Source of the DNA: an uncultured Gammaproteobacteria bacterium
GTDB lineage: Bacteria; Patescibacteriota; Microgenomatia; UBA12405
Length of the DNA: 64,000 bases
Direction of reading: 5' to 3'
NCBI GenBank assembly: GCA_964544275.1
Contig: CAZIZX010000001.1
Location: forward strand, 196,342-260,341
A program made the translations under genes and the position numbers. Every line of letters begins with the position of its first letter. Position 1 is the stretch's first letter. Below the pieces are notes generated by a model that was not told the origin of the DNA, made no database searches, and was given only the letters and a program-made list of their open reading frames with translations. Of the stretch, positions 10,710 to 62,050 are shown piece after piece.

Positions 10710-10724
10710 TAATACAATCAACCA

Positions 10725-11747: not shown

Positions 11748-11763
11748 GTGATATTATTTAGTC

Positions 11764-14259: not shown

Positions 14260-14293
14260 CCGAGCATTATACCCTATATACAGTCAATTTATC

Positions 14294-15076: not shown

Positions 15077-15079
15077 ATC

Positions 15080-16056: not shown

Positions 16057-16072
16057 ATTGCTAAAATAAATT

Positions 16073-16459: not shown

Positions 16460-16462
16460 GAC

Positions 16463-19325: not shown

Positions 19326-19378
19326 GGAACATCATAGCCTTTATTTGCTATACTGAATTATTAAAAACAAATTAAACT

Positions 19379-21427: not shown

Positions 21428-21431
21428 CTCG

Positions 21432-22535: not shown

Positions 22536-22536
22536 G

Positions 22537-23169: not shown

Positions 23170-23229
23170 ATTTAAATTTATATAATTTATTATACAGGAT
23201 ATTATATCACTATTTTCTTTTATTGTCAA

Positions 23230-28041: not shown

Positions 28042-28045
28042 TAAT

Positions 28046-29362: not shown

Positions 29363-29370
29363 CTACTATT

Positions 29371-31666: not shown

Positions 31667-31684
31667 ATCATGTAGAATACAAGA

Positions 31685-36575: not shown

Positions 36576-36591
36576 TAAACTATAGACAACC

Positions 36592-37527: not shown

Positions 37528-37528
37528 T

Positions 37529-39225: not shown

Positions 39226-39236
39226 TATAATAAAAC

Positions 39237-43574: not shown

Positions 43575-43603
43575 ACGATAGTATATAATTTTCTCAGCTT
43601 ATA

Positions 43604-47515: not shown

Positions 47516-47518
47516 ATC

Positions 47519-48337: not shown

Positions 48338-49404
48338 AAAAACAAAAAATAGCCATTGACATCTCACCCACTTTCGATGGCAATTCGCTTCGTGGCATTG
48401 GCTATTTTACCTCCCGACTGGTCGAGTCAATTAAAACTGAACTAAAAACCAATCCTGAATTCAAAAACTATCAGGTCGATTTCCTCACTCGAATTGATCA
48501 AAACCAATCAGGCTATGACTTAATTCACTATCCTTTTTTCGATCCGTTCAAGCTAACACTCCCCTCCAAAAAAAACATTCCTACCATTGTTACCGTCTAC
48601 GACCTCATCCCTCGACAATTTAAACAATTTTTTCCCGTTGGCATAAAAGGGGAATTATCCTGGCAAATCCAAAAAGCTCGCCTCCGCCATTCCGATTATC
48701 TAATAACTTGCTCCCACTATTCAAAACATATCATTAGCGATCTGACCGGCTATCCTGCTGACAGAATTTACGTCACCTACGCTGCTGCCGACGACAATTT
48801 TCGTCCCATCAAAAATCAGACAAAACTAAATTCCGTTAGCCAAAAATACCATCTTCCCGATAAATTTGTCCTTTATCTTGGTGATATTAATTGGAACAAA
48901 AACATCCCCTCCCTAGTCAAAGCTTGCCAAAAATTAAAATATCCTCTGGTAATAGTCGGATCGGCCGCCACTGAAAAAGACATCCCCGTTCATCCCTGGA
49001 CCCAAGACCTTCGCTGGCTCCAATCCCAAGCAAAAAAATCCCAGCTCATCCAATTAACTGGTTTCGTCCCCGACGAAGACCTTCCCGCCATCTTTAACCT
49101 GGCCACCATCTATTGTCAACCATCCTTTGCCGAAGGCTTCGGCGTACCTGTCGTCCAAGCTATGCAGTCAGGTTGTACCGTAGCCTACAGTACCGAAACC
49201 AGCCTTCCGGAAGTGATGGATTTTAACGGTGAATTTTTTGATCCCTATTCAACAAGCGAAATTCAAACTGCCTTGTCTAAACTGTGGAATGATCCCAAAT
49301 TGAGAAATCATTACCAAAAAAGCGGCCTCAAAAGGGCTCGGTTTTTCGACTGGAAACTAACAGCTATCCAAACATTATCCGTCTACCAACTAGCTCTTTT
49401 ATGA
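48334..49404 (+). CDS. GT4 (GT-B) glycosyltransferase.
   Basis: C-terminal EGFGVPVVQAMQSGCTVAYS, the GT4 E-x7-E region. Rossmann halves are present. Confidence 0.75.
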   Translation: MKKQKIAIDISPTFDGNSLRGIGYFTSRLVESIKTELKTNPEFKNYQVDFLTRIDQNQSGYDLIHYPFFDPFKLTLPSKKNIPTIVTVYDLIPRQFKQFFPVGIKGELSWQIQKARLRHSDYLITCSHYSKHIISDLTGYPADRIYVTYAAADDNFRPIKNQTKLNSVSQKYHLPDKFVLYLGDINWNKNIPSLVKACQKLKYPLVIVGSAATEKDIPVHPWTQDLRWLQSQAKKSQLIQLTGFVPDEDLPAIFNLATIYCQPSFAEGFGVPVVQAMQSGCTVAYSTETSLPEVMDFNGEFFDPYSTSEIQTALSKLWNDPKLRNHYQKSGLKRARFFDWKLTAIQTLSVYQLALL

Positions 49405-50210
49405 AAAAATCCACCCATTTCCTTTCCGTTATCATCCCTGTCTACAAACAGGAAAAAACCATCAAAAACGATCTCCTGTCAATTATCTCCACACTTGATC
49501 GTATCCGCTACGACTACGAAATAATCGCTATCGTTGATGGCATCAAAGTCGACAACTCCTACGAAATTATCGAATCCATAAAACATCCCAAAACCAAAGT
49601 TTTTGGTTACTATACCAACCGCGGCAAAGGCTACGCTGTCCGCTACGGTATGGCCAAAACTACTGGAGATTACGTTGCTTTTATTGATGCTGGCATGGAA
49701 ATTGACCCCAATGGAATTTCCATGCTCATCGAACACTTGGAGTGGTACAACGCTGATATTATTGTTGCCTCGAAAAGACATCCGGCTTCCCATGTCAATT
49801 ATCCCCTCCAACGTCGTCTGATCAGCCTTGGAGCCCAGATCATTTCCAAGGTTCTTTTAAGCATTAATGTCAAAGACACTCAAGCTGGTCTCAAAATTTT
49901 CAAACGTAAAGTCCTGGAAAAAGTCTTACCCCGATTATTAGTCAAAACTTACGCTTTTGACCTGGAAATACTTTCCGTTGCCAAACATCTTGGATTCAAC
50001 CGTATTTTTGAAGCACCCATCAAACTTAATTATGACTTCGACAGTCTGACTCACGCCCAAGGACTTCATACAATACTAAAGTGTCTTCAGGATACTCTTG
50101 CTGTCTTTTATCGACTCAAAATCATCCGCTACTACGATGACGACAACAAAAGAAAATGGATCTATGACCCGGATTTGGAAATGAGAATTAATACCGGAGA
50201 AGTCGCATGA
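49401..50210 (+). CDS. GT2 polyprenyl-phosphate monosaccharide synthase (DPM1-like).
   Basis: LSVIIPVYKQEKTI, GKGYAVRYG, FIDAGMEIDP and TQAGLKIF. Confidence 0.7.
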   Translation: MKKSTHFLSVIIPVYKQEKTIKNDLLSIISTLDRIRYDYEIIAIVDGIKVDNSYEIIESIKHPKTKVFGYYTNRGKGYAVRYGMAKTTGDYVAFIDAGMEIDPNGISMLIEHLEWYNADIIVASKRHPASHVNYPLQRRLISLGAQIISKVLLSINVKDTQAGLKIFKRKVLEKVLPRLLVKTYAFDLEILSVAKHLGFNRIFEAPIKLNYDFDSLTHAQGLHTILKCLQDTLAVFYRLKIIRYYDDDNKRKWIYDPDLEMRINTGEVA

Positions 50211-51205
50211 GCCAAATTCTCTTTTCTATCATTATTCCTGTCCGGCATACTACTAAATATCTTCGTCAAACTCTAAAGTTTATTAAAAAACAAACACTTC
50301 CCCAATATGAAGTTCTAGTCATCGACGATAAGCTCTCGACCAAATATTCAAAAAACCCAAACCACACCGGCCCGGCTTTCAAACGTAACCTTGGAGCTAA
50401 ACTCGCCCAAGGTCAATACTTAGCCTTTCTCGATGACGATTCGTATCCTGACAAAAATTGGTTAAAAAACACCTTAACCCTCTTCCAAGCTGACAAAGAC
50501 ATTGCCGCCATCTGCGGGCCCTGTCTCACCCCTCCGGATGACAACCGCTATCAGCAAGCTTCCGGCCTGGTCTGGTCGTCTTTTTTTGGCAGTGGGGGAG
50601 CTGGTTGTTATCGCAATTCCATCCACAAAAGTCGTTTTGTTGACGACTTTCCTTCAGTCAACTTGATAGTCAAAAAAAATATTTTCTTGAAAGCTGGCAG
50701 TTTTGATCATAATTATTGGCCCGGTGAAGACACTGTCTTGTGTCTGAAAATTACCAAAGAATTAAATAAAAAAATTCTCTATCATCCAACCATCCAAGTC
50801 TTCCATCATCGCCGACCGGTAATCTGGCCCCACCTTCAACAACTCAAACGTTACGCTATTCAACGGGGTTATTTCGTCAAAGTATTTCCTCAAACCAGCT
50901 TTCGACTTGGTTATTTTCTCCCGTCTTTCTTTTTTTTATACATCATCCTGCTTCCATTTTTACTATTTTTTCATCATTTTTTACCCTTAATTCCATTATA
51001 TTTGTATACATCAATACTAGTTCTTACCTTCATTAATTTTATTATCAAAGGCCACCACGCTATTACCTCGTTACTGGCATCAGCCACCATCCCCATCACC
51101 CACCTCTATTACGGCATGCTATTCTTATTTGGCTTATCCAAAAAGAACAATCTTTTTGTTCCTCATCAAATAAATATTAAAACTGGAGAATATGTCGGCG
51201 GCTAA
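50207..51205 (+). CDS. GT2 glycosyltransferase with a C-terminal multi-TM extension.
   Basis: FSIIIPVRHT, VLVIDD and FLDDDS (DxD). The last ~100 aa are hydrophobic (2-3 TM segments). Confidence 0.7.
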   Translation: MSQILFSIIIPVRHTTKYLRQTLKFIKKQTLPQYEVLVIDDKLSTKYSKNPNHTGPAFKRNLGAKLAQGQYLAFLDDDSYPDKNWLKNTLTLFQADKDIAAICGPCLTPPDDNRYQQASGLVWSSFFGSGGAGCYRNSIHKSRFVDDFPSVNLIVKKNIFLKAGSFDHNYWPGEDTVLCLKITKELNKKILYHPTIQVFHHRRPVIWPHLQQLKRYAIQRGYFVKVFPQTSFRLGYFLPSFFFLYIILLPFLLFFHHFLPLIPLYLYTSILVLTFINFIIKGHHAITSLLASATIPITHLYYGMLFLFGLSKKNNLFVPHQINIKTGEYVGG

Positions 51206-52679
51206 ACCATTTTCCATTTCTATTTCCTACCCTCCCCTGGAGTCTTCCAAGGGCAGCCCTTTTTTAAGCCAAAACCGTCAATTCCAATGGACTCATACCG
51301 GCAATGTTATTTATCCGGTTGTTCCCGCCTCCGCCGCCACCCTGCTTCAACAAAATAATTACCCCGTTTTTTGGGACGACGCTCTGGCCCAAAAACTAAA
51401 CTACCAAGATTGGCTAAAAAGAATAATTAAAAATAAGCCCAATCTGATCGTCATCGAAACCAAAACCCCTGTCATCAAAAAACATTGGCAAATTATTAAT
51501 CACCTCAAAAAATGCCACCCCAAATGGAAACCCATAATCGTTCTGATGGGGGATCATGTTACTGCCCTACCCCAAGAATCGCTCAACAATTCTCAGGTTG
51601 ATTACATTCTCACCGGTGGTGACTACGACTTTATGCTCTTAAATCTGGCCAACCACCTTACCCAAAACGAAAAATTAAAACCGGGATTCTATTATCGTAC
51701 CCCAAACACCATCGTCAACTCAGGCAAATTTGCTCTTAAGCACCACCATCTTGACAGCCTTCCCGTTATTGACCGCCAACTTACTCAATGGCACCTGTAC
51801 GCTTATAATAACTCTAATTACAAATACAAGCCCGGTGCCTATATTATGTCCTCCCGTGATTGCTGGTGGGGAAGATGCACCTTTTGTTCCTGGACTACCC
51901 TTTATCCCGGCAATCAATACCGTTCATTTTCTCCGGACTTCGTCATCAAAGAAATTGAAAATTTAGTTCACAACTTCAACGTCAAAGAAGTTTTTGATGA
52001 CGCCGGCACTTTTCCCGGTGGTAAATGGTTGGAAGAATTTTGCCAAAAGATGATTGACAGGGGACTAAACAAAAAAATAAAAATCAGTTGCAATATGCGC
52101 TTCGGTGCTTTAAATCTAAAGCAGTATCAACTGATGGCCAAAGCCGGTTTTCGCTTCATTCTTTACGGACTGGAATCTATCAACCAAAACACTCTCGATA
52201 AAATCAATAAAAACTTAAAGTTAAAAGAGATCAAAAAAACTTTAACCATGGCCAAATCAGTTGGTTTGGAGCCCCATTTAACTGTCATGATCGGTTACCC
52301 CTGGGAAACCCAAAAACAAGCCCAAAACACTCTAAATTTTGCCCGCTTCCTCTTCAAACAGGGGTTGGCCGACAGCCTCCAGGCCACCATCGTTATTCCG
52401 TATCCGGGTACCCCTTTGTTTGATTTCTGCCAAAAAAACAAACTTTTAATTACCCATAATTGGGAAGATTATGACATGCAAAATCCGGTTATCAAATCTC
52501 CCATATCCCCCAATCGCCAAAAACAACTGGTTCAGGATATTTTCAAAGGCATAATTTCACCCCAATTTATCCTACGAAAAATTACCTCAATCAGGAACAT
52601 CGAAGATATTAAATTCCTATCTACTTATGCCATCAAGTATCTTAAAAAATTAAAAGATTTTTCTTTTCATGACAGTTGA
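51192..52679 (+). CDS. B12-binding-domain radical SAM enzyme (class B-like) with non-canonical Cx4Cx2C cluster spacing.
   Basis: The N-terminal ~150 aa have a Rossmann-like cobalamin-binding-domain architecture. The radical SAM core is SRDCWWGRCTFCSW followed by a TIM-barrel region with conserved Gly/Asp positions. It aligns to the ORF at 56956 (TRGCPFNCYYCS). Confidence 0.65.
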   Translation: MSAAKPFSISISYPPLESSKGSPFLSQNRQFQWTHTGNVIYPVVPASAATLLQQNNYPVFWDDALAQKLNYQDWLKRIIKNKPNLIVIETKTPVIKKHWQIINHLKKCHPKWKPIIVLMGDHVTALPQESLNNSQVDYILTGGDYDFMLLNLANHLTQNEKLKPGFYYRTPNTIVNSGKFALKHHHLDSLPVIDRQLTQWHLYAYNNSNYKYKPGAYIMSSRDCWWGRCTFCSWTTLYPGNQYRSFSPDFVIKEIENLVHNFNVKEVFDDAGTFPGGKWLEEFCQKMIDRGLNKKIKISCNMRFGALNLKQYQLMAKAGFRFILYGLESINQNTLDKINKNLKLKEIKKTLTMAKSVGLEPHLTVMIGYPWETQKQAQNTLNFARFLFKQGLADSLQATIVIPYPGTPLFDFCQKNKLLITHNWEDYDMQNPVIKSPISPNRQKQLVQDIFKGIISPQFILRKITSIRNIEDIKFLSTYAIKYLKKLKDFSFHDS

Positions 52680-53688
52680 TATATCAATTATTATCCCCAC
52701 CCTTAACTCCGAAAAAGTCCTGCCTCATTGCCTTGAATCAATCAAGCGCCAAAACTTCCCTTCAAACAACTACGAAATCATCATCTCCGATGGCGGTTCA
52801 ATCGACAACACTATTTCCATCGCCAAAAAATACCATGCCAAGATTGTCAAAAATCCTCTCAAAACTGCCGAAGCCGGAAAAGCAGTTGCCCTCAAGCATT
52901 CTACTGGCAAGTATATAGCTCTGATTGACTCCGACAATATTCTGCCTCACCCGGATTGGATTTCCCAAATGTTAAAGCCGTTCCAGCAAAACCCTAAAAT
53001 TATTGGCATCGAACCCATCGAGTTCACTTACCAGACCAACGCTGGCTTTATCGAGAGGTATTCGGCCCTAATCGGCGCCAACGACCCATACGCCTTTATA
53101 TCCGGTGTCTCTGATCGCAAAAATTACATTAATCACCGCTGGACCGCCCTTGACCTAAAAACCAAAAGGTTCAAGAACTTTACTCTAATCAAACTTTACC
53201 CAAAAAAACCCATTCCCACCATCGGCGCCAACGGTACCGTTTTTCGCACTGACTTCCTCAAAAAAAATCTCCATTCCGACTACCTTTTCGACATTGACAT
53301 TATCACTCAGGTTTTAAATAAATACCAAAAACCGCTCCTTTTTGCCAAAGTTCACACCGGTATCATTCATACATATTGCGAGTCATCAATATCAAAATTC
53401 TACCGAAAACAAAAACGCCGGCTGACAGATTACTACACCTACCGACATCTTAGAAACTACGACTGGGATTCTTCCAACAAAACCGGTATCATCAAGTTTT
53501 CACTCTATACTCTCTCCTTTATTTTTCCCCTGATAGACTCTTTCAGAGGATTTTTCAACCAGCCGGACGCAGCCTGGTTCTTTCATCCTCTCGCCTGTCT
53601 GCTTACGCTTTTTGTCTACTCAAAAGTTCATCTTGCCTTTATACTTAACCAACTCAAACCAGTTAGCCGTCAAACCTGGCAACAATGA
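52669..53688 (+). CDS. GT2 glycosyltransferase.
   Basis: ISIIIPTLNSEKVL, IIISDGGSIDNT and LIDSDN. Confidence 0.75.
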   Translation: MTVDISIIIPTLNSEKVLPHCLESIKRQNFPSNNYEIIISDGGSIDNTISIAKKYHAKIVKNPLKTAEAGKAVALKHSTGKYIALIDSDNILPHPDWISQMLKPFQQNPKIIGIEPIEFTYQTNAGFIERYSALIGANDPYAFISGVSDRKNYINHRWTALDLKTKRFKNFTLIKLYPKKPIPTIGANGTVFRTDFLKKNLHSDYLFDIDIITQVLNKYQKPLLFAKVHTGIIHTYCESSISKFYRKQKRRLTDYYTYRHLRNYDWDSSNKTGIIKFSLYTLSFIFPLIDSFRGFFNQPDAAWFFHPLACLLTLFVYSKVHLAFILNQLKPVSRQTWQQ

Positions 53689-54695
53689 CCAACCTCCTTC
53701 TTCCCCAACTTCTCTACCACCAAAATATCAAAAAAACTGCTAATTTCCTCTTAAACCAGCCGTTATTTTTTCAAAATCGGCTATATCTATACTTACAACA
53801 ACAACGAATCACTCGCGTCATTGAAAAATTTAAACAATCTCCCTTTGCCCTTCGTATCGAAAACACCAACTTTTGTAACGGCCGCTGTTTTATGTGTCCC
53901 CACTCGTCGATGAAAAGAAAACAGGGGACTATGTCAAAAAAACTTTATCAAAAAATCATCAACCAGGCTGTCTCTTTGGGTATAAATTTTATCAACCTGC
54001 ACAACTTCGGAGAACCTCTGCTTGATCAGGATTTTATCTGGAGAATAAAATTTGCCAAATCCCAAGGTATCGAAAAAATCTCAACCAACACCAACGGTCT
54101 CCTTTTAACACCCAAATTATCAAAAGAAATTATTAAATCCGGGTTAGATGAAATTTACTTCAGTCTTGACGCTGCCTCTTCTCCTACCTACAAAAAAATT
54201 CGCCTTGGCCTTAATTATAAAATTGTCCACCAAAACCTGAATAACCTGATAAAGATCAAACAACAACTCAAATCATCTACACCCATAATAATTGTTGATT
54301 TCCTCGAATCAAGCTTAAACAAACACGAAACCAAATTGTTTGTCCAAAAATGGCAACCAAAAGTTGACCATGTCTGCATTTCCCAACTCCATGATTGGTC
54401 AGAAAAAATAACTTCTTCCGTCGACAACAGGTTTTCAAATTATGTTTCCTACAGCCAATCTCCCTGTCGTTTACCTTTTACCGAAATGACTATCAATTGG
54501 GACGGATCGGTTTCTCTATGCTGCCAGGATATAGAAGGAGAAGTCATCATTGGTAATATCAACCATCAAACCATTTCTCAGGTTTGGCAAAGCAAAAAAC
54601 TGGAGTCGATCCGCCAAAAACATTTATCCCTAACAACCGATCAGCTAATGTTATGTTCCAAATGCAAGCTTAGAACTTTTTGGTGGACTTTTTAA
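53685..54695 (+). CDS. Radical SAM enzyme with a C-terminal SPASM domain.
   Basis: CNGRCFMCPH (Cx3Cx2C) and GEPLL. C-terminal SPCRLP...SLCCQD...CSKCKL, a Cys-rich SPASM auxiliary-cluster motif. Confidence 0.75.
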   Translation: MTNLLLPQLLYHQNIKKTANFLLNQPLFFQNRLYLYLQQQRITRVIEKFKQSPFALRIENTNFCNGRCFMCPHSSMKRKQGTMSKKLYQKIINQAVSLGINFINLHNFGEPLLDQDFIWRIKFAKSQGIEKISTNTNGLLLTPKLSKEIIKSGLDEIYFSLDAASSPTYKKIRLGLNYKIVHQNLNNLIKIKQQLKSSTPIIIVDFLESSLNKHETKLFVQKWQPKVDHVCISQLHDWSEKITSSVDNRFSNYVSYSQSPCRLPFTEMTINWDGSVSLCCQDIEGEVIIGNINHQTISQVWQSKKLESIRQKHLSLTTDQLMLCSKCKLRTFWWTF

Positions 54696-54696
54696 T

Positions 54697-55854
54697 ATGA
54701 CCAAGCCTAAAATTCTTATAATTTGTCCCTTTTATCCCCCCAACTTAGGCGGAGTCGAAACCCATCTCCAGCTATTAACCAATCATCTTTCAAAAAATCA
54801 ATATCCCACCACCGTCCTCAGCTATAAACCCATTACCACCAAAGTTGATGGCTACATCAAACATGAAAAACAAGGCTATATCGATATTCATCGATATTGG
54901 TGGCCCGGATTCGGCTTGTTCGACAAAACTACGCCTTACCCGATTTTACAGTTTCTCTATATTGTCCCCGGCTTACTTTTTCACAGCCTATCCTATGCAC
55001 TAAAAAACAACCAAAACATTGACGTCATCCACACCCACGGCTTTGCCGCCGCCTTCATCGGCAGAATCATCAGCCTCTTCTTTCCCCACAAACGCTTGGT
55101 TGTCAGCACTCATTTCATTTACCAGAAACTGTCAAAAGATAGCTTCTCAGCCAAAATATTCAAATGGACTTTCGACCGCTATGACAAAATTCTTCTTGTC
55201 AGCCAAAAATCCGGCGCCGAACTAAAACACATCGGTCTCAGATCCGAAAAGATGGAAATATTTCACCATTGGCTAGATCAAGATATTTTTAAACCAGCCA
55301 GCAAATCCAAAACCAGAACCTCACTCCAACTTCCCATCAACACTCCTATCGTTCTTTTCGTCGGACGTATTATTAGAATGAAAGGTGTCTTTGAACTGTT
55401 GAAAGCCGCCGCCAAATTACCTCAAGTCCAGTTTATCTGCATCGGTGATGGCCCGGATATGCCCCAACTCAAAACAGCCGCCCGACTAATCAAGAACTTT
55501 AAATTGATAGGCAAAATCAGTCATGTCGACACTATTAAATATTACAATTCGGCTGATATTTTTATCCTGCCTTCACAAAGTGACGAAGCCCAACCCGTAA
55601 CCATCATGGAAGCCCTTTCCTGCGCCTGTCCGGTCATCTCTACCAACAAAGGCGCTGTAGCCAGCATGTTCAGTCCAAAATGTGGCATCTCCATCAGCCC
55701 GACTGTTTCTAATATCAAAAACGCTATCTCCAATTTACTAAGCGACCAAGCCCGACTACACAGCATGTCTCTTGCCGCCAGAAAATATGCTCTAAAACAT
55801 TATTCTGCCGCCAACGCTGATATTATTACCAAAAGTTACCATGCCCAATATTGA
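54697..55854 (+). CDS. GT4 (GT-B) glycosyltransferase.
   Basis: ILIICPFYPPNLGGVETH, and the C-terminal DEAQPVTIMEALSCACPVIST. Confidence 0.8.
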   Translation: MTKPKILIICPFYPPNLGGVETHLQLLTNHLSKNQYPTTVLSYKPITTKVDGYIKHEKQGYIDIHRYWWPGFGLFDKTTPYPILQFLYIVPGLLFHSLSYALKNNQNIDVIHTHGFAAAFIGRIISLFFPHKRLVVSTHFIYQKLSKDSFSAKIFKWTFDRYDKILLVSQKSGAELKHIGLRSEKMEIFHHWLDQDIFKPASKSKTRTSLQLPINTPIVLFVGRIIRMKGVFELLKAAAKLPQVQFICIGDGPDMPQLKTAARLIKNFKLIGKISHVDTIKYYNSADIFILPSQSDEAQPVTIMEALSCACPVISTNKGAVASMFSPKCGISISPTVSNIKNAISNLLSDQARLHSMSLAARKYALKHYSAANADIITKSYHAQY

Positions 55855-56959
55855 TCTAAAAAAGAAATTCGTTTTGGCCCGAAAATCTCCTTTAACCGCC
55901 CTAAACACCGTTCTCGATCCAGTCCTATACCACCGCCACCCAACTCCTTTTCCTCGCCTTATCAATCTCTTTGTTACCGAAAGCTGTAACTTCAACTGCC
56001 CCATGTGCCACGTCAAATCATCCCGTCTCCAAAGAAAAAAAACTCAAATTTCTCTCGATAATCTCAAACCCTTAATTGATGAGTCTTCACCCTTTCAACC
56101 GTCATTTCAACTTGCCGGCGGCGAACCTCTCCTCCATCCTCAAATATTCAAAATAATAAAATATATATCAGACAAAAAAATGATTTCCGGACTGGTTACC
56201 AATGGTCTTCTGCTGGAAAAATACGCTCAAGATATTATTGATTCCGACCTTGATTTCTTGGCTGTTTCCTTGGATGGTCCCGATGAAACCACCCAATACC
56301 AGCGAGGCTTCGTCAAAAATTCTTTCACTCAAATCATCAAGGGTATCAAAAAAATTATCCGTCTCAAAAAAAATAGCCATCTTCCCAATATCCGTCTGGC
56401 CACCGTTATTTCCAAAAACAATTTAAACAACTTTGACCAAATTTTTTCCTTGGCCCAAAACCTTAGGATCGACCAATGGTCCCTTAGCCACCATTTCTTT
56501 TACAACCAAAACATACAAAAAACCCAAAATAAGTTCTCCCGACAACACCACTTAGGCACTGACATTTGGGGAGAATATATTGGTAATAGGAAAGAATTTT
56601 TCACCCTCAAACAAAGGCAAACTCTAAAGCTAAAACTTAAAAAGTTGAACCAAAATATTAAAACAGCCAAAAATATAAAAACCAACATTATTCCACCCGC
56701 AACCGTTGATCCGTATTATACACAAACACCTCCTTCTACTCGATCCTCTTGTCTCTCACCATACCGGCAGGTATTCATCCGCGGTAATGGAGATGTGGAA
56801 ATGTGTCAGGGCTATATTTTGGGTAATATTAAGGGTCAAAAATTAAAAGATATCTGGACCAGCTCTAAAGCCAGTCACTTCCGCCACGTCTTTTCATCCA
56901 ATCCCATTATGCCCTCATGTTTTCGTTGTTGTGCTCTAGATATTAAATTCGATCAATGA
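55841..56959 (+). CDS. Radical SAM enzyme with a C-terminal SPASM domain.
   Basis: TESCNFNCPMCHV (Cx3Cx2C) and AGGEPLLHP. C-terminal SCLSPY...EMCQGY...CFRCCALD. Confidence 0.75.
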   Translation: MPNIDLKKKFVLARKSPLTALNTVLDPVLYHRHPTPFPRLINLFVTESCNFNCPMCHVKSSRLQRKKTQISLDNLKPLIDESSPFQPSFQLAGGEPLLHPQIFKIIKYISDKKMISGLVTNGLLLEKYAQDIIDSDLDFLAVSLDGPDETTQYQRGFVKNSFTQIIKGIKKIIRLKKNSHLPNIRLATVISKNNLNNFDQIFSLAQNLRIDQWSLSHHFFYNQNIQKTQNKFSRQHHLGTDIWGEYIGNRKEFFTLKQRQTLKLKLKKLNQNIKTAKNIKTNIIPPATVDPYYTQTPPSTRSSCLSPYRQVFIRGNGDVEMCQGYILGNIKGQKLKDIWTSSKASHFRHVFSSNPIMPSCFRCCALDIKFDQ

Positions 56960-58353
56960 CCCAAGTTATCCTCATCAATCCGCCCATTTTCTATCACCAG
57001 GGAAACCCTGTCTCCCTCGATACCAGCTTTCCACCACTCGGACTCCTTTATTTGGCTTCGACACTAAAACAGAACAATATTTCAGTCAAAACCCTAGACG
57101 TCGGGGCCCAAAATTTAAACCTAGACGATACCTTATCCTTTATCAAAAACGAAAACGCCGTTATTGTTGGTATCACCTCCATGACACCAACACTCCAAGG
57201 TGCAGTAACATTGGCCAAGTCTATAAGATCCAAATTCAAAAACGTCAACCTCGTCCTGGGCGGATCTCATATCAGTGCTGACCCCGATTTTATCAGGCGC
57301 CTGCCTTTTTTCGACTTCGCTATTCAGGGCGAATCCGAATTAACTTTTTTAAATCTAGTCCAACAGGTCCTTGACGGCAAGAAAATTCGCGGCACCCATC
57401 TGGGCAAACCGGCTCAAAACCTCGACCATCTTCCCTGGCCCGACAGAAACCAATTACCCTCAAACTCATACCTCAAAAAAGCCGATTTAATTGCCACCCG
57501 AGGTTGCCCTTTTAACTGTTATTACTGCAGTCGCCCGGCGGTCAGCAATTGCATCCGCTATCGGTCTCCCAAAGACATTGCCGACGAAATGGATTCTCTC
57601 TATTCTTCTTCTGGCGGTGATTATTTGTTTCAAGATGACTCCCTCACCATCAACAAAGCTCATATAATCGAACTGTCCGAAGAACTCATCAAACGCTCAA
57701 AGCGTTATCACTGGGAAGGATATACCCGAATCGATCTGGTTGACGCAGATGTCCTGTCAGCTATGTCTCAAGCTGGTTGTCACAACTTAACTTTTGGCAT
57801 CGAAACAGGTGATGAAAAACTCAGGCGAGAAGTTGTCAAAAAACCCTTTACCAATTCCCAAATAAAAAATGTTATCAAACTCTGTCAAAAATATCACATT
57901 ACCGCCAGTGGTTTTTTTATCATCGGTCACTATTCGGAAACCAAAACCCAAGTCACCAAAACCATAGACTTTATACTAAAAAACAATTTCGATGTCGTTG
58001 GTGTATCGATCGCCACTCCTTTTCCCGGATCAAAACTTTGGGATTATGCCATCAACGACAAAATAATCGATCTGAAATTTATCGATAATTTTGCTCTCGG
58101 AAAAATGGGGGATGGTTACGCCGGAATCTACCCTGTTTATCACCCCTCCCGCCTTAAGCTGGATTGGCTCTACCAGCAAAGACGCTATGTCATGAGAAAG
58201 TTTTATCTTCGCCCCAAATTTATTCTCAATCGTCTTGCCAAAGACATCTTGTCACCTCAATACCTATACGCCGACATCAAGGAGGGGTTAAATGTCTTAG
58301 TCAAAGGCTCTTCCTCCCGCGCTCCTTACAAAAAACAAACCAAATATCTCTAA
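56956..58353 (+). CDS. B12-binding-domain radical SAM enzyme (class B-like).
   Basis: N-terminal B12-binding-like domain (LGLLYLASTLKQNNISVKTLD.....VIVGITSMT). Canonical RGCPFNCYYCS. C-terminal radical SAM TIM barrel. Confidence 0.75.
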   Translation: MTQVILINPPIFYHQGNPVSLDTSFPPLGLLYLASTLKQNNISVKTLDVGAQNLNLDDTLSFIKNENAVIVGITSMTPTLQGAVTLAKSIRSKFKNVNLVLGGSHISADPDFIRRLPFFDFAIQGESELTFLNLVQQVLDGKKIRGTHLGKPAQNLDHLPWPDRNQLPSNSYLKKADLIATRGCPFNCYYCSRPAVSNCIRYRSPKDIADEMDSLYSSSGGDYLFQDDSLTINKAHIIELSEELIKRSKRYHWEGYTRIDLVDADVLSAMSQAGCHNLTFGIETGDEKLRREVVKKPFTNSQIKNVIKLCQKYHITASGFFIIGHYSETKTQVTKTIDFILKNNFDVVGVSIATPFPGSKLWDYAINDKIIDLKFIDNFALGKMGDGYAGIYPVYHPSRLKLDWLYQQRRYVMRKFYLRPKFILNRLAKDILSPQYLYADIKEGLNVLVKGSSSRAPYKKQTKYL

Positions 58354-58354
58354 A

Positions 58355-59554
58355 ATGACAAAAAAAATTGTCTTTATTTTCAACCAACTTAACGGTACTG
58401 AAATTGCTACCGGCGGCGACTTTAAATCAAAGACCATCCTTGATCACTTTTCAAAAGATAAGGGCTATTTTGCTGTCGTCATCGCTCCCGGAAGTTTCAA
58501 AAATCACTTTACCAAATTTACTTTCTATCCAACCGGAATTAATTTTCTGGAAAGGTTAAATAAATCTCAAAATCCCTTTTTTGTTACGGTTCTCTTCAGT
58601 ATTAGAGCTATATGTGTATTTTTCATATTACTAAAAATCAAACCTCAAATAATATATTCCACTGGGGACTTTTTTTGCAACGTCATTCCCGCATCCATAT
58701 TCAAACGTATTTTCCCCAAAACTATCTTCACTTCCTGTGTTTTTCACCTAAATCAACCGCCCCACAAAAGACAATCGAACTCCTTAGTCAGAAATATCTT
58801 TTCTTACACATTCCAACAACTTAGCCTCCTCTTCCTTAAATATTCAGCCGACAAAATTTTTCTCCTTAACAACCAAGTTCTTCACTATCTTCTAAATGCC
58901 AAACATATACCCGACAACAAATTGGTAGTTTCATGTGCCGGAGTTGATTCAAATAATATTCAAAAAACAATTTCTAAAACCAACAAAAAAAAGGATCAGT
59001 TGGTATATTTCGGCCGCCTCAACTCCACTAAAGGAGTTTTTGACCTACCGCCAATATTGTCACATATCTTAAAAGAATGCCCAAACTACCGCCTCCACTT
59101 AATCGGCTTCGTCGACGAGAGCACGAAAAAACATTTATTAAATGAGTTTAAAAAATATAACTGCCATAAATCAATAATCTTCCATGGCTTTATAAAGTCC
59201 AAAACCGATGTCTACAAAATTATTGCCTCATCTAAAGTCGCCATTTTCCCCTCATACGAAGAGGGCTGGAACATCGCCCTTTTTGAAGCTATTGCTTGCG
59301 GTTGTCCGGTGGTCACTTATAAATTACCTGTTTATACAGAAATTTTTAAGGACTCTCTATTATCTGCGCCTATCGGTGACACAAAAGCACTATCATCCCT
59401 AATAGTTTCATTATTAACAGAGTACAATGAAAATAAAATTAAAAGGTATGTAGGCAAAACCCTATCAGTCATTAGGCAATACAACTGGTCAAATGTCTAT
59501 AACATTGAAAAAAAATCAATCGAAAATCAACTCCAGGGTAATCTGGGAAAATGA
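58355..59554 (+). CDS. GT4 (GT-B) glycosyltransferase.
   Basis: LVYFGRLNSTKGV, and EEGWNIALFEAIACGCPVVTY (E-x7-E). Confidence 0.75.
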   Translation: MTKKIVFIFNQLNGTEIATGGDFKSKTILDHFSKDKGYFAVVIAPGSFKNHFTKFTFYPTGINFLERLNKSQNPFFVTVLFSIRAICVFFILLKIKPQIIYSTGDFFCNVIPASIFKRIFPKTIFTSCVFHLNQPPHKRQSNSLVRNIFSYTFQQLSLLFLKYSADKIFLLNNQVLHYLLNAKHIPDNKLVVSCAGVDSNNIQKTISKTNKKKDQLVYFGRLNSTKGVFDLPPILSHILKECPNYRLHLIGFVDESTKKHLLNEFKKYNCHKSIIFHGFIKSKTDVYKIIASSKVAIFPSYEEGWNIALFEAIACGCPVVTYKLPVYTEIFKDSLLSAPIGDTKALSSLIVSLLTEYNENKIKRYVGKTLSVIRQYNWSNVYNIEKKSIENQLQGNLGK

Positions 59555-60284
59555 ATGGCTTCAATTTTCCCAAAATGCCTATTTCAGGCCAAACTATAGT
59601 TTTGTAAATCAAATTTCAAATCTATATTCAAACCACATGAGTGGAATAAAAACACTTGAAGTAGGAGCTGGATCCGGCAGCGACTCTATCTATCTAGCCA
59701 AAAAAGGCACCGACACTTCACTTGTCGATTTTTCTTCTCACTCAATTGCTGTGTCACAGAAAATTGCCAAAGCCAATCATGTCAAAGTCCACACCTATCA
59801 AGCCGACTGTCGTCACCTTCCCTTTAAATCCCAAACATTTGATCTTGTCTTTTCCGTAGGTCTCGTCGAACACTTTTCCAACCCTATTCCAGTTCTAAAG
59901 GAACAGCTCCGTGTTCTTCGAAACGGCGGCATTCTCATTATTGATGTTCCCCAAAAGTTTAACCCCTATACACTCGTAAAAAAACTCCGCATGTTAACTG
60001 GCACCTATCCTTTTGGATGGGAAACGGAATATTCACTTTTTGATTTAAAAAGGCTTGCCCGTAAGCTAAAAATTGCTCCTCTCAAATTCTATGGCAGAAA
60101 CAGCTCTCTAACATTAAAACTCCACCCCAAACTACAACCCCACTATTCCAAAATTTTTGCTATTATCGAGTCATCTCCGATCGCTCCTTTTCTTTGCCTT
60201 TGCATAGGAGGAATATTTAAAAAAATACATGTCAGAAAAAGTTTCTGTCGTGATGCCTGCCAAAAACGAAACCACATCCTTTAA
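59493..60284 (+). CDS. Class I SAM-dependent methyltransferase.
   Basis: Motif I LEVGAGSGSDSIYLA, motif II LVDFS and motif post-I/III FDLVFSVGLVEHF. The 5' end overlaps the upstream GT4 by ~60 nt, and the start is not certain. Confidence 0.65.
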   Translation: MSITLKKNQSKINSRVIWENEWLQFSQNAYFRPNYSFVNQISNLYSNHMSGIKTLEVGAGSGSDSIYLAKKGTDTSLVDFSSHSIAVSQKIAKANHVKVHTYQADCRHLPFKSQTFDLVFSVGLVEHFSNPIPVLKEQLRVLRNGGILIIDVPQKFNPYTLVKKLRMLTGTYPFGWETEYSLFDLKRLARKLKIAPLKFYGRNSSLTLKLHPKLQPHYSKIFAIIESSPIAPFLCLCIGGIFKKIHVRKSFCRDACQKRNHIL

Positions 60285-61032
60285 AAATGGACTTCTGGAT
60301 AGTGTTTTATCAACAATTCCTTCCCGATTTGAACCCCACCTTGTTGTTTCTATTGGCGGCAATTCCAACCTGGAATTCACTGATCTTGTCCAGGAAATAT
60401 CGGGAAGAAATCCAAACATTCACCCACTCCTTCTCGGTAATCCACCCTTGGCCACAGCTTATCTAACAGGTCTTCAATACGCCCAAAAAGAACTAGGCGC
60501 CAATTATATTGTTGAGATGGATGCCAGCGGTGCTCACCATCCAAAATATATTCCTGACTTTATTAGATCCCTAGCCGAGGAAGGTTTCGACGCTGCCTTT
60601 TCATCCCGCTTCTCCAAAGGTTCCGCCATTGACCGTTACCCTCTTCAACGCCGTCTTGTTAGCCGACTTGGTACCGTGTCGGCCAATCTAACCTTTGGTT
60701 TTTGGCCTCACTGGCCCGATCTTACCAGTGGCTTTGAGTCCTTTTCCAACACCACTCTTCAACAAATTCTCTGCCATAAACCTGTCGGGACCTGGATTTC
60801 GGAAACCAAAGGACCTGGCCATTTCTATCAAACAGAAATGAGGGTCAGAATACTAAAAAATAATTTTCAAGTCCAAACCATTCCTATTATCTGGGGGACT
60901 GATCGAGCCCAACCTCCAACTAAACTTCCTACCAGAACTGTCCTTCAAGCCTTAACCAGCTTACTTGTACTCAAACAAGAACTCAACTCTTCACCATTAT
61001 CTCGACAAACCAACACACCCCATGAAAGCTAA
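60229..61032 (+). CDS. GT2 polyprenyl-phosphate monosaccharide synthase (DPM1-like).
   Basis: VSVVMPAKNE, VEMDASGAHHP, SSRFSKGS and TSGFESF. Confidence 0.65.
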   Translation: MSEKVSVVMPAKNETTSFKNGLLDSVLSTIPSRFEPHLVVSIGGNSNLEFTDLVQEISGRNPNIHPLLLGNPPLATAYLTGLQYAQKELGANYIVEMDASGAHHPKYIPDFIRSLAEEGFDAAFSSRFSKGSAIDRYPLQRRLVSRLGTVSANLTFGFWPHWPDLTSGFESFSNTTLQQILCHKPVGTWISETKGPGHFYQTEMRVRILKNNFQVQTIPIIWGTDRAQPPTKLPTRTVLQALTSLLVLKQELNSSPLSRQTNTPHES

Positions 61033-62050
61033 TTCTCCTTCAGTATCCGCCATCGTTCTCAACTACAATGGTAAACATCTATTAGAAGAATCTCTCAACT
61101 CGCTTCATCATCAAACTTACTCCAATTTTAAAATTTACGTCCTCGACGCTTCTTCGTCCGACGGCAGTTCTGAATATATAAGAAAAAATTACCCAAAAGT
61201 TACCATCATCAATGCCCCGTCAACCCTTGGTATCGCCGGATCCAGCAATACTGCCGCCCACACCACTACTGAAAGCTACCTGGTTTTTTTGAGTAATGAC
61301 ATGAAGTTCGACAAAAACTGTATTTCTCAATTGGTAGAAACAATCACCAAAGACCCACGCTGCGGTATATGTTCAGCTGTCCTCCTCAAGCACGACAAGG
61401 ACCCGATCACCGGCAAATATCACATTGATAATGCTGGAATTGACGTTGACCTTTTTGGTTTTATCTCCCCTCATGCTAACTCAAAAACTCTTGATGACCT
61501 CCCCGACCAACCCTTTGAAACCTTTGCTTCCTGCGGAGGCTGTTTTATTATCAAACGCAATATATTCGAAAAAATTGGCGGCTTTGATACCGCCTTTTGG
61601 GGTCTTTCAGAAGACGTCGATCTCTCCTGGCGAACACGCCTTTTAGGTTTAAAAGTTACTGTTAACCCCAAATCCTATCTTTATCACCATATTTCTCCCT
61701 CTTTGGGCAAGTTAACCATAAAAAGAACCAGATTTCTCAGCGAAAGAAACAACCTCCGGATGCTTTTGAAAAATTATTCCTCACCCAACCTGTTTTTGCT
61801 CCTCCCTCTCTATGCCGTCCTTGAAATTGGCGAAGTATCCTTTTATCTTCTCCGACGTCGTCCTGAATTATCTATCTCTATCATAAAAGCCGTACTTTGG
61901 AATATGATCCATTTGCCCGATACGCTCAAACAAAGACGCAAAATCCAAAAAATCAGAAAAGTTACTGACCAAAAAATTATGCAATTACTAAGTCATTCAA
62001 GCTTTAAACTAAAAATATTTCCTCAAGTCCTAAAAACAAAAGCTATATAG
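61022..62050 (+). CDS. GT2 glycosyltransferase.
   Basis: VSAIVLNYNGKHLL, IYVLDASSSDGS, FLSNDM and SEDVDLSWR. The ORF opens at 60965, but the Met at 61022 gives the canonical GT2 N-terminus. Confidence 0.75.
   Translation: MKANSPSVSAIVLNYNGKHLLEESLNSLHHQTYSNFKIYVLDASSSDGSSEYIRKNYPKVTIINAPSTLGIAGSSNTAAHTTTESYLVFLSNDMKFDKNCISQLVETITKDPRCGICSAVLLKHDKDPITGKYHIDNAGIDVDLFGFISPHANSKTLDDLPDQPFETFASCGGCFIIKRNIFEKIGGFDTAFWGLSEDVDLSWRTRLLGLKVTVNPKSYLYHHISPSLGKLTIKRTRFLSERNNLRMLLKNYSSPNLFLLLPLYAVLEIGEVSFYLLRRRPELSISIIKAVLWNMIHLPDTLKQRRKIQKIRKVTDQKIMQLLSHSSFKLKIFPQVLKTKAI

What the first reader, a model, noticed from the sequence alone, without database searches (positions are those of the whole stretch)
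51192..62050. Four radical SAM enzymes (2 B12-binding, 2 SPASM) interleaved with glycosyltransferases and a methyltransferase: a candidate novel glycan-tailoring module
Over 11 kb the gene order is B12-rSAM, GT2, SPASM-rSAM, GT4, SPASM-rSAM, B12-rSAM, GT4, SAM-methyltransferase, GT2 (DPM1-like), GT2. Each gene overlaps its neighbour's stop codon, so this reads as one operon. Class B (cobalamin) radical SAM enzymes do C-methylation or other radical rearrangements on unactivated carbons, as in Fom3, GenK and HpnP. SPASM/twitch radical SAMs include sugar dehydrogenases and epimerases such as BtrN. Four of them embedded among glycosyltransferases, with no small precursor-peptide ORF nearby, points to radical chemistry on a sugar, a lipid-linked oligosaccharide or the lipid carrier itself. 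I do not recognise this combination from any characterised pathway. It also implies cobalamin use in an organism whose gene content here looks genome-reduced.
Basis: partly seen in the sequence, partly recalled or inferred. Interest (0 to 1): 0.88.

Follow-up and report, generated by a model that had tools for sequence, protein, structure and literature searches.

The report
Radical-SAM-rich envelope glycan locus in CPR bacterium
Four iron-sulfur "radical SAM" enzymes really do sit among sugar-transferring enzymes here, as part of a much larger, uncharacterised cell-surface sugar-building locus that is widespread in tiny uncultivated (CPR) bacteria and probably makes chemically unusual surface sugars.

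Summary
Ten co-directional, mostly overlapping genes at 51192-62050 encode two class-B-type and two SPASM-Pfam radical SAM (rSAM) enzymes among GT2/GT4 glycosyltransferases and a methyltransferase.

Corrections:
- The two "SPASM" enzymes keep only 4-5 C-terminal Cys. They are BtrN-like twitch enzymes with one auxiliary cluster.
- g1 (51192) misses the Pfam B12 threshold but has the class-B fold and a conserved CX4CX2C motif.
- The block is not autonomous. It is the end of a ~40-kb envelope-glycan island (23453-63755) with about ten GT-C-like membrane proteins and a Wzx-like flippase.
- Related Patescibacteria share a conserved frame (GT-C, GT2, GT4, GT2, GT2, g1, g2 ... TPR membrane protein). 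The insert between carries 0-6 further rSAMs.
- g3-g6 recur at ~50% identity in Aureabacteria and Chloroflexi MAGs, and a GT2-g1...g6 core recurs in other phyla.

The closest solved structures all act on carbohydrates (AprD4, BtrN, BlsE). No curated family cut-off is reached, and there is no precursor peptide or RRE.

Best reading: cytoplasmic radical tailoring of sugars in a polyprenyl-phosphate/GT-C pathway. Cobalamin use is plausible for g6 and unproven for g1. This is an uncharacterised variant of a known kind of locus, not a rare oddity.

The parts
45929..47515 (+). Polytopic (about 9 TM) GT-C-like membrane protein; first gene of the conserved frame
   Evidence: No Pfam hit in my scan; precomputed weak PMT_2 hit. 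About 9 TM segments. 49-56% identical orthologs in the same position in L005, L087, L088 and L089.
47519..48337 (+). GT2, constant frame
   Evidence: Pfam GT2 7.4e-21. 61-64% identity in Microgenomates loci.
48334..49404 (+). GT4, constant frame
   Evidence: Glycos_transf_1 9.6e-23. 59-62% identity.
49401..50210 (+). Small soluble GT2, candidate polyprenyl-phosphate sugar synthase (Dpm1/PpgS-like), constant frame
   Evidence: GT2 8.6e-24. Full-length alignment to PpgS, ArnC and AglJ models, but below cut-offs. 68-76% identity, the best conserved gene of the frame.
50207..51205 (+). GT2 that always precedes g1 (GT2-g1 pair)
   Evidence: GT2 2e-18. Directly upstream of the g1 ortholog in L004, L005, L008, L009, L016 and L019; upstream of a split g1 in L018. 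Directly upstream in L087-L089.
51192..52679 (+). g1: class-B-architecture radical SAM enzyme with a CX4CX2C cluster motif (C224, C229, C232); constant frame
52669..53688 (+). g2: GT2, last gene of the constant frame
   Evidence: GT2 1.2e-25. 55-62% identity in Microgenomates loci and 40-47% in Aureabacteria, Chloroflexi and Deltaproteobacteria loci.
53685..54695 (+). g3: BtrN-like twitch radical SAM enzyme (one auxiliary 4Fe-4S cluster: C261, C279, C324, C327)
   Evidence: Pfam. Gapless alignment of the four Cys to BtrN's C-terminal domain. The four Cys are invariant in 30 homologs and in 130-131 of 131 wider-family sequences. AF2 pLDDT 88.8; Foldseek top hit BtrN 8.6e-15, then BlsE.
54697..55854 (+). 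g4: GT4, travels with g3, g5 and g6
   Evidence: Glycos_transf_1 2.6e-29 and Glyco_transf_4 1.8e-17. 42-53% orthologs between g3 and g5 in L089, L004 and L007.
55841..56959 (+). g5: second twitch-type radical SAM enzyme (C304, C322, C360, C363, C364)
   Evidence: Pfam. Best PDB sequence match BlsE 2.3e-12. Twitch domain aligns to g3's. Cys conserved in 4 of 4 orthologs.
56956..58353 (+). g6: canonical B12-binding-domain radical SAM enzyme (CX3CX2C at 184-191)
   Evidence: PF02310 3.5e-21 plus PF04055 1.4e-18. Best NCBIfam hits HpnJ and BchE are far below cut-off. PDB: AprD4 (core only), QCMT/MgmA and the TokK B12 domain. Relatives are fused to, or preceded by, a class I methyltransferase.
58355..59554 (+). 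g7: GT4, lineage-specific tail
   Evidence: Glycos_transf_1 2e-25. No close ortholog in related loci; at most 32% identity.
59493..60284 (+). g8: class I SAM methyltransferase (start 59493/59505, or 59637 as called elsewhere)
   Evidence: Methyltransf_11 3e-20. Aligns from residue 6 to the methyltransferase domain of the MT-B12-rSAM fusion P0113. Gene call in L001 starts at the equivalent of 59637.
60229..61032 (+). g9: GT2, lineage-specific
   Evidence: GT2 2.4e-11. Weak PpgS-like match. No orthologs in compared loci.
60965..62050 (+). g10: GT2 (probable start 61022)
   Evidence: GT2 2.2e-21. Alternative ATG at 61022.
62043..63755 (-). About 9-TM membrane protein with C-terminal TPR repeats; conserved right-hand border of the locus
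   Evidence: TPR Pfam hits. About 9 TM segments. 47-54% orthologs in the same convergent position in L005, L008, L087, L088 and L089.
23453..45932 (.). Upstream part of the same glycosylation island: GT2s, a GT4, PMT_2-type and unassigned polytopic proteins, and a Wzx-like flippase (33364-34875)
   Evidence: Pfam. TM scan. The only intergenic gap inside is 29 nt at 43575-43603.

Best explanation
The region is the tailoring end of a large cell-envelope glycoconjugate locus of a Patescibacteria (CPR, Microgenomates-type) bacterium.

Proposed pathway:
- Soluble GT2/GT4 enzymes build sugars or oligosaccharides on a polyprenyl-phosphate carrier on the cytoplasmic side.
- Small Dpm1-like GT2s charge polyprenyl-phosphate with single sugars.
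- A Wzx-like flippase exports the intermediates.
- About ten GT-C-type membrane transferases deliver the sugars to an extracytoplasmic acceptor (wall polymer or surface protein).

The four radical SAM enzymes, which need SAM and reduced Fe-S clusters and so work in the cytoplasm, act on the sugar moieties of these intermediates:
- The two BtrN-like twitch enzymes (g3, g5) abstract a sugar C-H hydrogen. They then oxidise, epimerise or decarboxylate that position.
- The two class-B-type enzymes (g1, g6) perform C-methylation if they are cobalamin-dependent, or an AprD4/HpnJ-type dehydration or rearrangement if not.
- g8 adds O- or N-methyl groups.

g1 with its GT2 partner is a constant, core step. 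g3-g10 form a swappable, lineage-variable tailoring set that diversifies the surface glycan.

Shown: domain identities, folds, Cys motifs, synteny and distribution. Inferred: substrates, reaction types, carrier and acceptor.
For: - Domains and folds.
- All closest solved relatives act on carbohydrates: AprD4 on paromamine, BtrN on 2-deoxy-scyllo-inosamine, BlsE on cytosylglucuronate.
- g1's CX4CX2C motif has precedent in the sugar/nucleoside-acting cobalamin enzymes GenD1, Sis14 and OxsB (PMC4340712 and PMC9204698).
- The genes are embedded without gaps among GT2/GT4 genes. They sit in an island with a Wzx-like flippase (3.2e-40) and PMT_2 GT-C proteins. An LCP ligase and a sortase lie in the window.
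- The glycan context is kept wherever relatives occur: Aureabacteria, Chloroflexi, Woesebacteria, Shapirobacteria, Parcubacteria, a Deltaproteobacteria MAG, and a Bathyarchaeia-labelled contig flanked by RmlA/RmlB-like genes and a sub-threshold AftD-like GT-C match.
- The frame is constant (55-76% identity) and its rSAM content varies from 1 to 7.
- A Rosetta-stone fusion of a g8-like methyltransferase with a g6-like enzyme exists.
Against: - No substrate evidence of any kind exists. Every NCBIfam hit is far below its cut-off, so reaction types are extrapolated from relatives at 14-19% identity.
- No nucleotide-sugar enzymes and no initiating phosphoglycosyltransferase were found among the window proteins I scanned.
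- Cobalamin binding is untested. AprD4, the closest structure of g1 and the closest sequence match of g6, binds none.
- The best NCBIfam matches of g1 and g6 include lipid-acting enzymes (ladderane protein, HpnR). HpnJ, the top match, acts on a hopanoid-linked sugar. g5 also matches GDGT-MAS.
Confidence: 0.6

Rival explanations
1. The class-B-type enzymes (g1 at least) are cobalamin-independent, AprD4-like enzymes. They would dehydrate or deoxygenate or rearrange a sugar diol to make deoxy- or keto-sugars, rather than act as C-methyltransferases. No cobalamin would be needed. This is a variant of the glycan reading that differs in cofactor and chemistry.
For: - AprD4 binds no cobalamin despite its Rossmann-like domain (PMC12931638).
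- g1 fails the PF02310 threshold.
- No cobalamin riboswitch or cobalamin gene lies in the 64 kb.
- CPR genomes are small.
Against: - g6 has a strong PF02310 match (3.5e-21).
- g6's N-domain aligns to TokK's cobalamin domain, while AprD4 aligns only over the rSAM core.
- CX4CX2C is known from the cobalamin enzymes OxsB and GenD1.
- The association and fusion with methyltransferases suggests a methylation theme.
Confidence: 0.3
2. The radical SAM enzymes act on a lipid rather than on a sugar. The target would be the polyprenyl carrier, a glycolipid anchor or scavenged membrane lipids (methylation, cyclisation or cross-linking). The glycosyltransferases would make the head group.
For: - Below-cut-off NCBIfam matches of g1 and g6 include the ladderane-lipid B12 protein and HpnR.
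- g5 matches GDGT-MAS (1.7e-08) and HpnH, and g3 matches Tes.
- Several GT2s carry a C-terminal hydrophobic segment.
Against: - All these scores are far below cut-offs. HpnJ reaches 157 and 142 bits against 577.
- HpnJ, the top match, acts on the glucosamine ring and not on the lipid (PMC9204698).
- The closest structures are sugar enzymes.
- No lipid-biosynthesis genes appear in the island or in the related loci examined.
Confidence: 0.12
3. The twitch/SPASM-type enzymes mature a peptide or protein, as in a RiPP-like or glycoprotein side-chain modification. The GTs would glycosylate that peptide, as in the GG-Bacteroidales peptide system or glycocins.
For: - Most characterised SPASM-family enzymes are peptide maturases.
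- Both GT4s weakly match TIGR04157, the GT of a peptide system.
- The GT2 at 47519 weakly matches SunS.
- A sortase-anchored DUF11 protein is encoded at the island's left edge.
Against: - There is no small ORF or intergenic space from 43604 to 62050. The only gap near the island holds just a 31-aa ORF and a 56-aa ORF that runs into the neighbouring GT2 gene; neither looks like a precursor.
- No RRE/PqqD domain is present. The N-terminal extensions are 40-55 aa with no Pfam hit, and g3's is all-helical in the model.
- TIGR04157 scores are 78 and 53 bits against a cut-off of 400.
- There are only 4-5 auxiliary Cys, and the fold is closest to BtrN and BlsE.
Confidence: 0.07

Closest known systems
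AprD4 (radical SAM 1,2-diol dehydratase of apramycin biosynthesis, PDB 6FD2)
   Different: Only 14-15% identity. AprD4 binds no cobalamin. g6 has a bona fide PF02310 domain. The NCBIfam AprD4 model scores 47 and 80 bits against a cut-off of 500. AprD4 sits in an aminoglycoside antibiotic cluster, not an envelope glycan locus.
[quoted passage not shown]
   Same: Same two-domain architecture. g1 shares the CX4CX2C variant reported for GenD1, Sis14 and OxsB. HpnJ is the best NCBIfam match of g1 and g6, and it follows a GT2 (HpnI) in its pathway (from knowledge of the hopanoid pathway). g1 likewise always follows a GT2.
   Different: Scores are far below every curated cut-off (HpnJ 157 and 142 against 577). 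No hopanoid or aminoglycoside genes are nearby. Cobalamin dependence is untested.
BtrN (2-deoxy-scyllo-inosamine dehydrogenase; twitch-domain rSAM, PDB 4M7T) and BlsE (cytosylglucuronate decarboxylase, 7VOB)
   Same: g3: top Foldseek hits are BtrN (8.6e-15) and then BlsE. Four auxiliary-cluster Cys align without gaps to BtrN's C-terminal domain. One auxiliary cluster is expected. g5: the best PDB sequence hit is BlsE.
   Different: 18-19% identity. g3 has an extra 50-residue helical N-terminus and a conserved CC pair. The context is GT-rich envelope loci rather than antibiotic clusters. The substrate is unknown.
O-antigen/capsule-type loci and the mycobacterial polyprenyl-phosphate sugar / GT-C system (DprE1/E2, Emb/Aft)
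   Same: Works alike at locus level. There is a conserved frame with a variable tailoring insert, a Wzx-like flippase, Dpm1-like GT2s and many GT-C transferases. AftD-like GT-C proteins occur in related loci. Tailoring of a carrier-linked sugar before export is the proposed analogy.
   Different: No initiating phosphoglycosyltransferase, Wzy or Wzz was identified. The tailoring is by radical SAM enzymes instead of NAD- or flavin-dependent ones. The analogy is inferred, not tested.

Membership tests
Class B (cobalamin-binding-domain) radical SAM enzymes | N-terminal Rossmann-type cobalamin-binding domain (PF02310) | tested here: met
Class B (cobalamin-binding-domain) radical SAM enzymes | Three-Cys motif for the SAM-binding 4Fe-4S cluster | tested here: met
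   g6 has CX3CX2C (C184, C188, C191). g1 has CX4CX2C (C224, C229, C232). The Cys are invariant across 38 aligned sequences. The variant is known in OxsB and GenD1.
Class B (cobalamin-binding-domain) radical SAM enzymes | Actually binds and uses cobalamin | not testable with these tools
   The closest structure, AprD4, binds none. No cobalamin riboswitch or cobalamin gene lies in the 64 kb, which is too small a sample to decide.
Characterised class B equivalogs (HpnJ, BchE, HpnR, PhpK, AprD4, BzaD, MgmA, ladderane protein) | Score at or above NCBIfam's curated cut-off | tested here: not met
   The best hit is HpnJ at 157 bits (g1) and 142 bits (g6) against a cut-off of 577.6. All others are lower relative to their cut-offs.
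SPASM-domain radical SAM enzymes (two auxiliary clusters) | Seven or eight conserved C-terminal Cys (definition in PMC9477430) | tested here: not met
   PF13186 matches both enzymes. Only C261, C279, C324 and C327 are invariant in g3, plus C280 in 126 of 131 sequences. g5 has C304, C322, C360, C363 and C364.
Twitch-domain radical SAM enzymes (BtrN type) | Three or four conserved Cys for one auxiliary cluster, in a truncated SPASM-like domain | tested here: met
   g3's four Cys align without gaps to the Cys of BtrN's C-terminal domain. That these are BtrN's cluster ligands is from my knowledge of the BtrN structure. BtrN is the top Foldseek hit. g5's domain aligns to g3's with the same four Cys.
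BtrN / BlsE isofunctional families | Same substrate and reaction (curated equivalog score) | tested here: not met
   The BlsE model TIGR04466 scores 44 bits (g3) and 62 bits (g5) against a cut-off of 400. Identity to BtrN is 19%. This is a resemblance of fold and cofactor only.
RiPP radical SAM maturase systems (including the GG-Bacteroidales peptide system with GT TIGR04157) | Adjacent precursor peptide gene | tested here: not met
   There is no unoccupied DNA from 43604 to 62050. The gaps in the island are 223 nt and 29 nt and hold no plausible precursor.
RiPP radical SAM maturase systems (including the GG-Bacteroidales peptide system with GT TIGR04157) | RRE (PqqD-like) leader-recognition domain; GT reaching the TIGR04157 cut-off | tested here: not met
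   There is no PqqD or other Pfam hit in the 55-aa and 40-aa N-termini, even at E up to 10. g3's N-terminus is all-helical. TIGR04157 scores 77.8 and 52.9 bits against 400.
Polyprenyl-phosphate-dependent envelope glycan pathway | Flippase and GT-C transferases present | tested here: met
   Polysacc_synt_3 3.2e-40 at 33364-34875. PMT_2 hits at 24117, 25673(-), 27959, 42093(-) and 43604. Further 7-9-TM proteins have no Pfam hit.
Polyprenyl-phosphate-dependent envelope glycan pathway | Initiating phosphoglycosyltransferase, or a polyprenyl-phosphate sugar synthase above cut-off | tested here: inconclusive
   No PF02397 or PF00953 protein was found among the scanned ORFs. The protein at 49401-50210 aligns full-length to PpgS, ArnC and AglJ models, but at 33-43 bits against cut-offs of 325-529.

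The most novel reading that the evidence does not exclude
CPR bacteria, and by lateral transfer other uncultivated anaerobes, use dedicated families of class-B-type and twitch radical SAM enzymes to install C-methyl, deoxy, keto or rearranged sugars on carrier-linked envelope glycans. That would be radical carbohydrate chemistry so far known only from antibiotic pathways. The highly conserved CX4CX2C enzyme g1 plus its GT2 partner would perform a core envelope step in Microgenomates. The swappable rSAM insert (0-6 further enzymes) would generate surface-glycan diversity.
Probability: 0.35. Interest if true: 0.8.

Novelty: new variant of a known kind. Interest (0 to 1): 0.6.

Why it matters
- Radical SAM tailoring of sugars is characterised almost only in antibiotic pathways such as aminoglycosides, blasticidin and oxetanocin.
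- Here the same enzyme types are fixtures of the main envelope-glycan locus of a large uncultivated bacterial radiation. One of them (g1) is conserved at 62% identity or more among its 120 closest database relatives.
- If the substrates are sugars, these loci hold new anaerobic carbohydrate chemistry. They would also explain part of the surface diversity of episymbiotic CPR cells, which matters for host attachment and phage recognition.
- The work also sets up a concrete test of whether tiny-genome bacteria depend on scavenged cobalamin for envelope synthesis.

Tried and rejected
- The metagenome-contig scan for g1 neighbourhood statistics failed with a tool error and consumed the cap. I used targeted contig look-ups instead.
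- Rfam gathering scan of the window gave no hits, so no cobalamin riboswitch.
- The promoter/terminator scan of 43500-63400 did not differ from shuffles: 38 against 41.3 promoters and 25 against 17.8 +/- 4.0 terminators. It says nothing about operon structure.
- Literature searches for the cassette (CPR, Patescibacteria or Saccharibacteria with radical SAM, glycosyltransferase or cobalamin) found no relevant description. One search turned up an uncharacterised rSAM + GT block on a Brachyspira plasmid.
- I first took g3 for a rare family, with 80 word-index hits. The exhaustive search corrected this to 1,195 representative clusters at E<=1e-30. Only the close orthologs (44% identity or more) are few.
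- HpnI/HpnJ membership was rejected on scores.
- I checked whether the ORF at 22339-22641 continues the truncated M23 domain. It has no Pfam hit.
- The organism name could not be retrieved.

Full report
OBSERVATION

Pfam confirms the order:
- g1 51192-52679: radical SAM.
- g2: GT2.
- g3 53685-54695: radical SAM + SPASM.
- g4: GT4.
- g5 55841-56959: radical SAM + SPASM.
- g6 56956-58353: B12-binding + radical SAM.
- g7: GT4.
- g8: class I methyltransferase.
- g9 and g10: GT2.

E-values range from 1e-11 to 1e-29, so none of this is chance. Seven of the nine junctions overlap and two have 1-nt gaps. The starts of g8 and g10 are ambiguous. There is no unoccupied DNA between 43604 and 62050.

CORRECTIONS TO THE DOMAIN CALLS

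g1 gets no significant PF02310 hit. The N-terminal 200 residues score 15.3 bits against a cut-off of 32.1. An AlphaFold2 model (pLDDT 87.5, pTM 0.89) shows a five-strand Rossmann domain in front of the rSAM barrel. Structure searches place it squarely in the class-B architecture:
- TokK and OxsB also match.

g1's cluster motif is CX4CX2C (C224, C229, C232). The three Cys are invariant in all aligned orthologs and paralogs. This variant is described for the cobalamin enzymes OxsB and GenD1/Sis14 (PMC9204698 and PMC4340712).

The two 'SPASM' enzymes have too few cysteines for a SPASM domain. That domain needs seven or eight Cys, whereas twitch needs three or four (PMC9477430).
- g3 keeps C261, C279, C324 and C327. 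These are invariant in 30 homologs and present in 130-131 of 131 wider-family sequences. C280 is present in 126 of 131.
- The four Cys align without a gap to the Cys of BtrN's C-terminal domain.
- The g3 model (pLDDT 88.8) hits BtrN first (8.6e-15) and BlsE second.
- g5 has the same pattern (C304, C322, C360, C363, C364). Its best PDB sequence match is BlsE.

Both are therefore twitch-type enzymes with one auxiliary cluster.

CONTEXT IN THE WINDOW

The block is the 3' end of a gene-dense island from 23453 to 63755. The island holds:
- Further GT2s and a GT4.
- Five PMT_2-type GT-C proteins, plus several 7-9-TM proteins without a Pfam hit.
- A Wzx-like flippase at 33364-34875 (3.2e-40).
- A convergent membrane protein of about 9 TM segments with TPR repeats at 62043-63755.

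The rest of the window encodes housekeeping genes (SecA, BipA, aminoacyl-tRNA synthetases, RF, FtsEX). It also encodes an LCP ligase, a sortase and a DUF11 protein with a sortase-type sorting signal. This indicates a Gram-positive-type envelope. No nucleotide-sugar enzymes, initiating phosphoglycosyltransferase or cobalamin genes were seen among the proteins I scanned. Rfam finds nothing.

WHO ELSE HAS IT

Identical proteins occur on metagenome contigs and on an unnamed 262-kb NCBI contig. The nearest named relatives of g1 are a 'Patescibacteria group bacterium' (78% identity) and Candidatus Shapirobacteria (about 66%).

Shapirobacteria and Woesebacteria contigs and three long JGI contigs share a frame: GT-C, GT2, GT4, GT2, GT2, g1, g2 ... 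TPR protein on the opposite strand. Identity across the frame is 47-76%.

Between g2 and the TPR gene the content differs. The counts below are of further rSAM genes:
- L087: none.
- L005: one.
- The window: three.
- L088: two inside the frame and a third just beyond the TPR gene.
- L008: five.
- L089: six, giving seven rSAM genes in all.

g7-g9 have no orthologs in these loci. The finding therefore straddles three parts:
- A constant part (g1, g2).
- A semi-mobile sub-module (g3-g6).
- A lineage-specific tail (g7-g10).

The g3-g4-g5-g6 sub-module recurs at 49-56% identity in an Aureabacteria MAG. A partial version recurs at 42-49% (g3, g4, g6) in a Chloroflexi MAG. Contig lengths suggest that close g3 relatives share contigs with the closest g6 relatives.

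A smaller core (GT2-g1 ... MT, g6, GT2) appears in several other contigs:
- Parcubacteria and Deltaproteobacteria contigs.
- A 'Pseudomonadales'-labelled contig, which lacks the upstream GT2.
- A Bathyarchaeia-labelled contig, next to RmlA/RmlB-like genes and a sub-threshold AftD-like GT-C match.
- An Omnitrophota contig that shows the g6 part and the GT2 but ends before any g1.
Binning of these MAG contigs was not verified.

Family sizes:
- g1: more than 5,900 relatives at E<=1e-20, with the top 120 at least 62% identical.
- g6: more than 4,290 at E<=1e-10.
- g3: few close orthologs, but 1,195 representative clusters at E<=1e-30.

In several phyla a class I methyltransferase directly precedes the g6-like gene. 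In Parcubacteria it is fused to it as Zn-ribbon + MT + B12-rSAM, 768 aa. Its methyltransferase domain is homologous to g8.

WHAT IT MOST LIKELY DOES

All four rSAMs have intact SAM-cluster motifs. None reaches the curated cut-off of any NCBIfam family; the best is HpnJ at 157 and 142 bits against 577. The closest solved relatives are, without exception, carbohydrate-modifying enzymes: AprD4, BtrN and BlsE. The glycan context is retained in every phylum where relatives occur.

I therefore favour cytoplasmic radical tailoring of sugar residues on nucleotide- or polyprenyl-phosphate-linked intermediates. These would then be flipped and transferred by the GT-C proteins. By resemblance only:
- g3 and g5 would do BtrN/BlsE-type C-H abstraction with oxidation, epimerisation or decarboxylation.
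- g1 and g6 would do C-methylation, or an AprD4/HpnJ-type dehydration or rearrangement.
- g8 would do O- or N-methylation.

The constant-frame, variable-insert layout resembles O-antigen and capsule loci. It suggests diversification of a surface glycan. Domain identity, fold, motifs and synteny are shown. Substrates, reactions, carrier and acceptor are inferred.

RIVALS

- Cobalamin-free enzymes. The class-B-type enzymes may be AprD4-like dehydratases. This is a real possibility for g1. It is less likely for g6, which has a strong PF02310 hit and whose N-domain aligns to TokK rather than AprD4.
- Lipid substrate. This is suggested only by sub-threshold matches to the ladderane protein, HpnR, GDGT-MAS and Tes.
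- Peptide or protein substrate. This is disfavoured by the lack of a precursor gene, of an RRE and of a full SPASM domain, and by the BtrN-like fold.

COMPARISON AND NOVELTY

The cassette works like known sugar-tailoring rSAM chemistry from aminoglycoside and nucleoside antibiotic pathways. It is placed in a polyprenyl-phosphate/GT-C envelope pathway. It is not a member of any characterised isofunctional family.

I found no description of it in the searchable literature. The recent B12-rSAM review lists carbohydrates only in the antibiotic context. It is a new variant of a known kind of locus.

It is common in CPR rather than a singular oddity. That lowers the surprise of this particular window but raises the biological weight of the family.

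Noticed in passing
window 1-64000: GC skew is strongly negative along the whole window (-0.08 to -0.45 in 2-kb bins), on stretches with plus-strand and with minus-strand genes alike. The plus strand is markedly C-rich although it carries most genes.
   Followed up: no
window 22537-23229 (-), 3124-3834 (-), 17537-18601 (+): A DUF11 surface protein at the left edge of the glycosylation island ends in VPKTGD plus a hydrophobic stretch and a basic tail, which is a sortase-type sorting signal. A sortase and a LytR-CpsA-Psr ligase are also in the window. Together these point to a Gram-positive-type wall and possible acceptors for the glycan.
   Followed up: partly
L009 9086-11389 (Parcubacteria MAG) = P0113; also P0090: A natural fusion of a Zn-ribbon, a class I methyltransferase (homologous to g8; 25% identity, E 6e-9) and a g6-like B12-radical SAM enzyme (42% identity), 767-768 aa. 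In other loci a separate methyltransferase overlaps the start of the g6-like gene.
   Followed up: partly
L089 (JGI 3300083231, 219-kb contig) 7541-19818; L008 4226-18003: The same conserved frame carries seven (L089) or six (L008) radical SAM genes in a row with GTs. The window's four is mid-range.
   Followed up: partly
L013, L038, L042 (Deltaproteobacteria, Omnitrophota and Endomicrobiaceae MAGs): Tandem arrays of four to eight g6-like B12-radical SAM genes, with no glycosyltransferase hits detected by my window-protein queries. This is a different, unexplained context for the wider family.
   Followed up: no
window 27316-28122 (-), 30140-31666, 31685-33427, 34872-36575, 45171-45932: Polytopic membrane proteins (7-9 predicted TM segments) inside the island with no Pfam hit, and no NCBIfam hit for the four that were scanned. 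They are possibly further GT-C transferases, polymerases or ligases. The 27316-28122 ORF overlaps both of its neighbours.
   Followed up: partly
window 19843-22535: FtsE and FtsX are followed by a coiled-coil protein whose C-terminus matches only the first 53 of 96 positions of the M23 peptidase model. It is either an EnvC-like degenerate activator or a truncation. The overlapping ORF at 22339-22641 has no Pfam hit.
   Followed up: partly
L016 (Bathyarchaeia-labelled contig JBEKBM010000028.1) 1520-17020; also L020, L025, L029 and L075 (DPANN-labelled): A compact version of the cassette (GT2, GT2, g1 at 50%, g6 at 37%, MT, GT2s) sits on a contig binned as archaeal. It lies next to RmlA/RmlB-like genes and a sub-threshold AftD-like GT-C match. 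This suggests cross-domain transfer if the binning is right.
   Followed up: partly
L090 (GCA_040961635.1) 6978-9956 and 10001-14493: In this related locus a g3 ortholog (53%) directly precedes the g1 ortholog (52%) and follows a 992-aa AftD-type GT-C protein. Four B12-rSAM genes and three methyltransferases are nearby.
   Followed up: no
   Followed up: no
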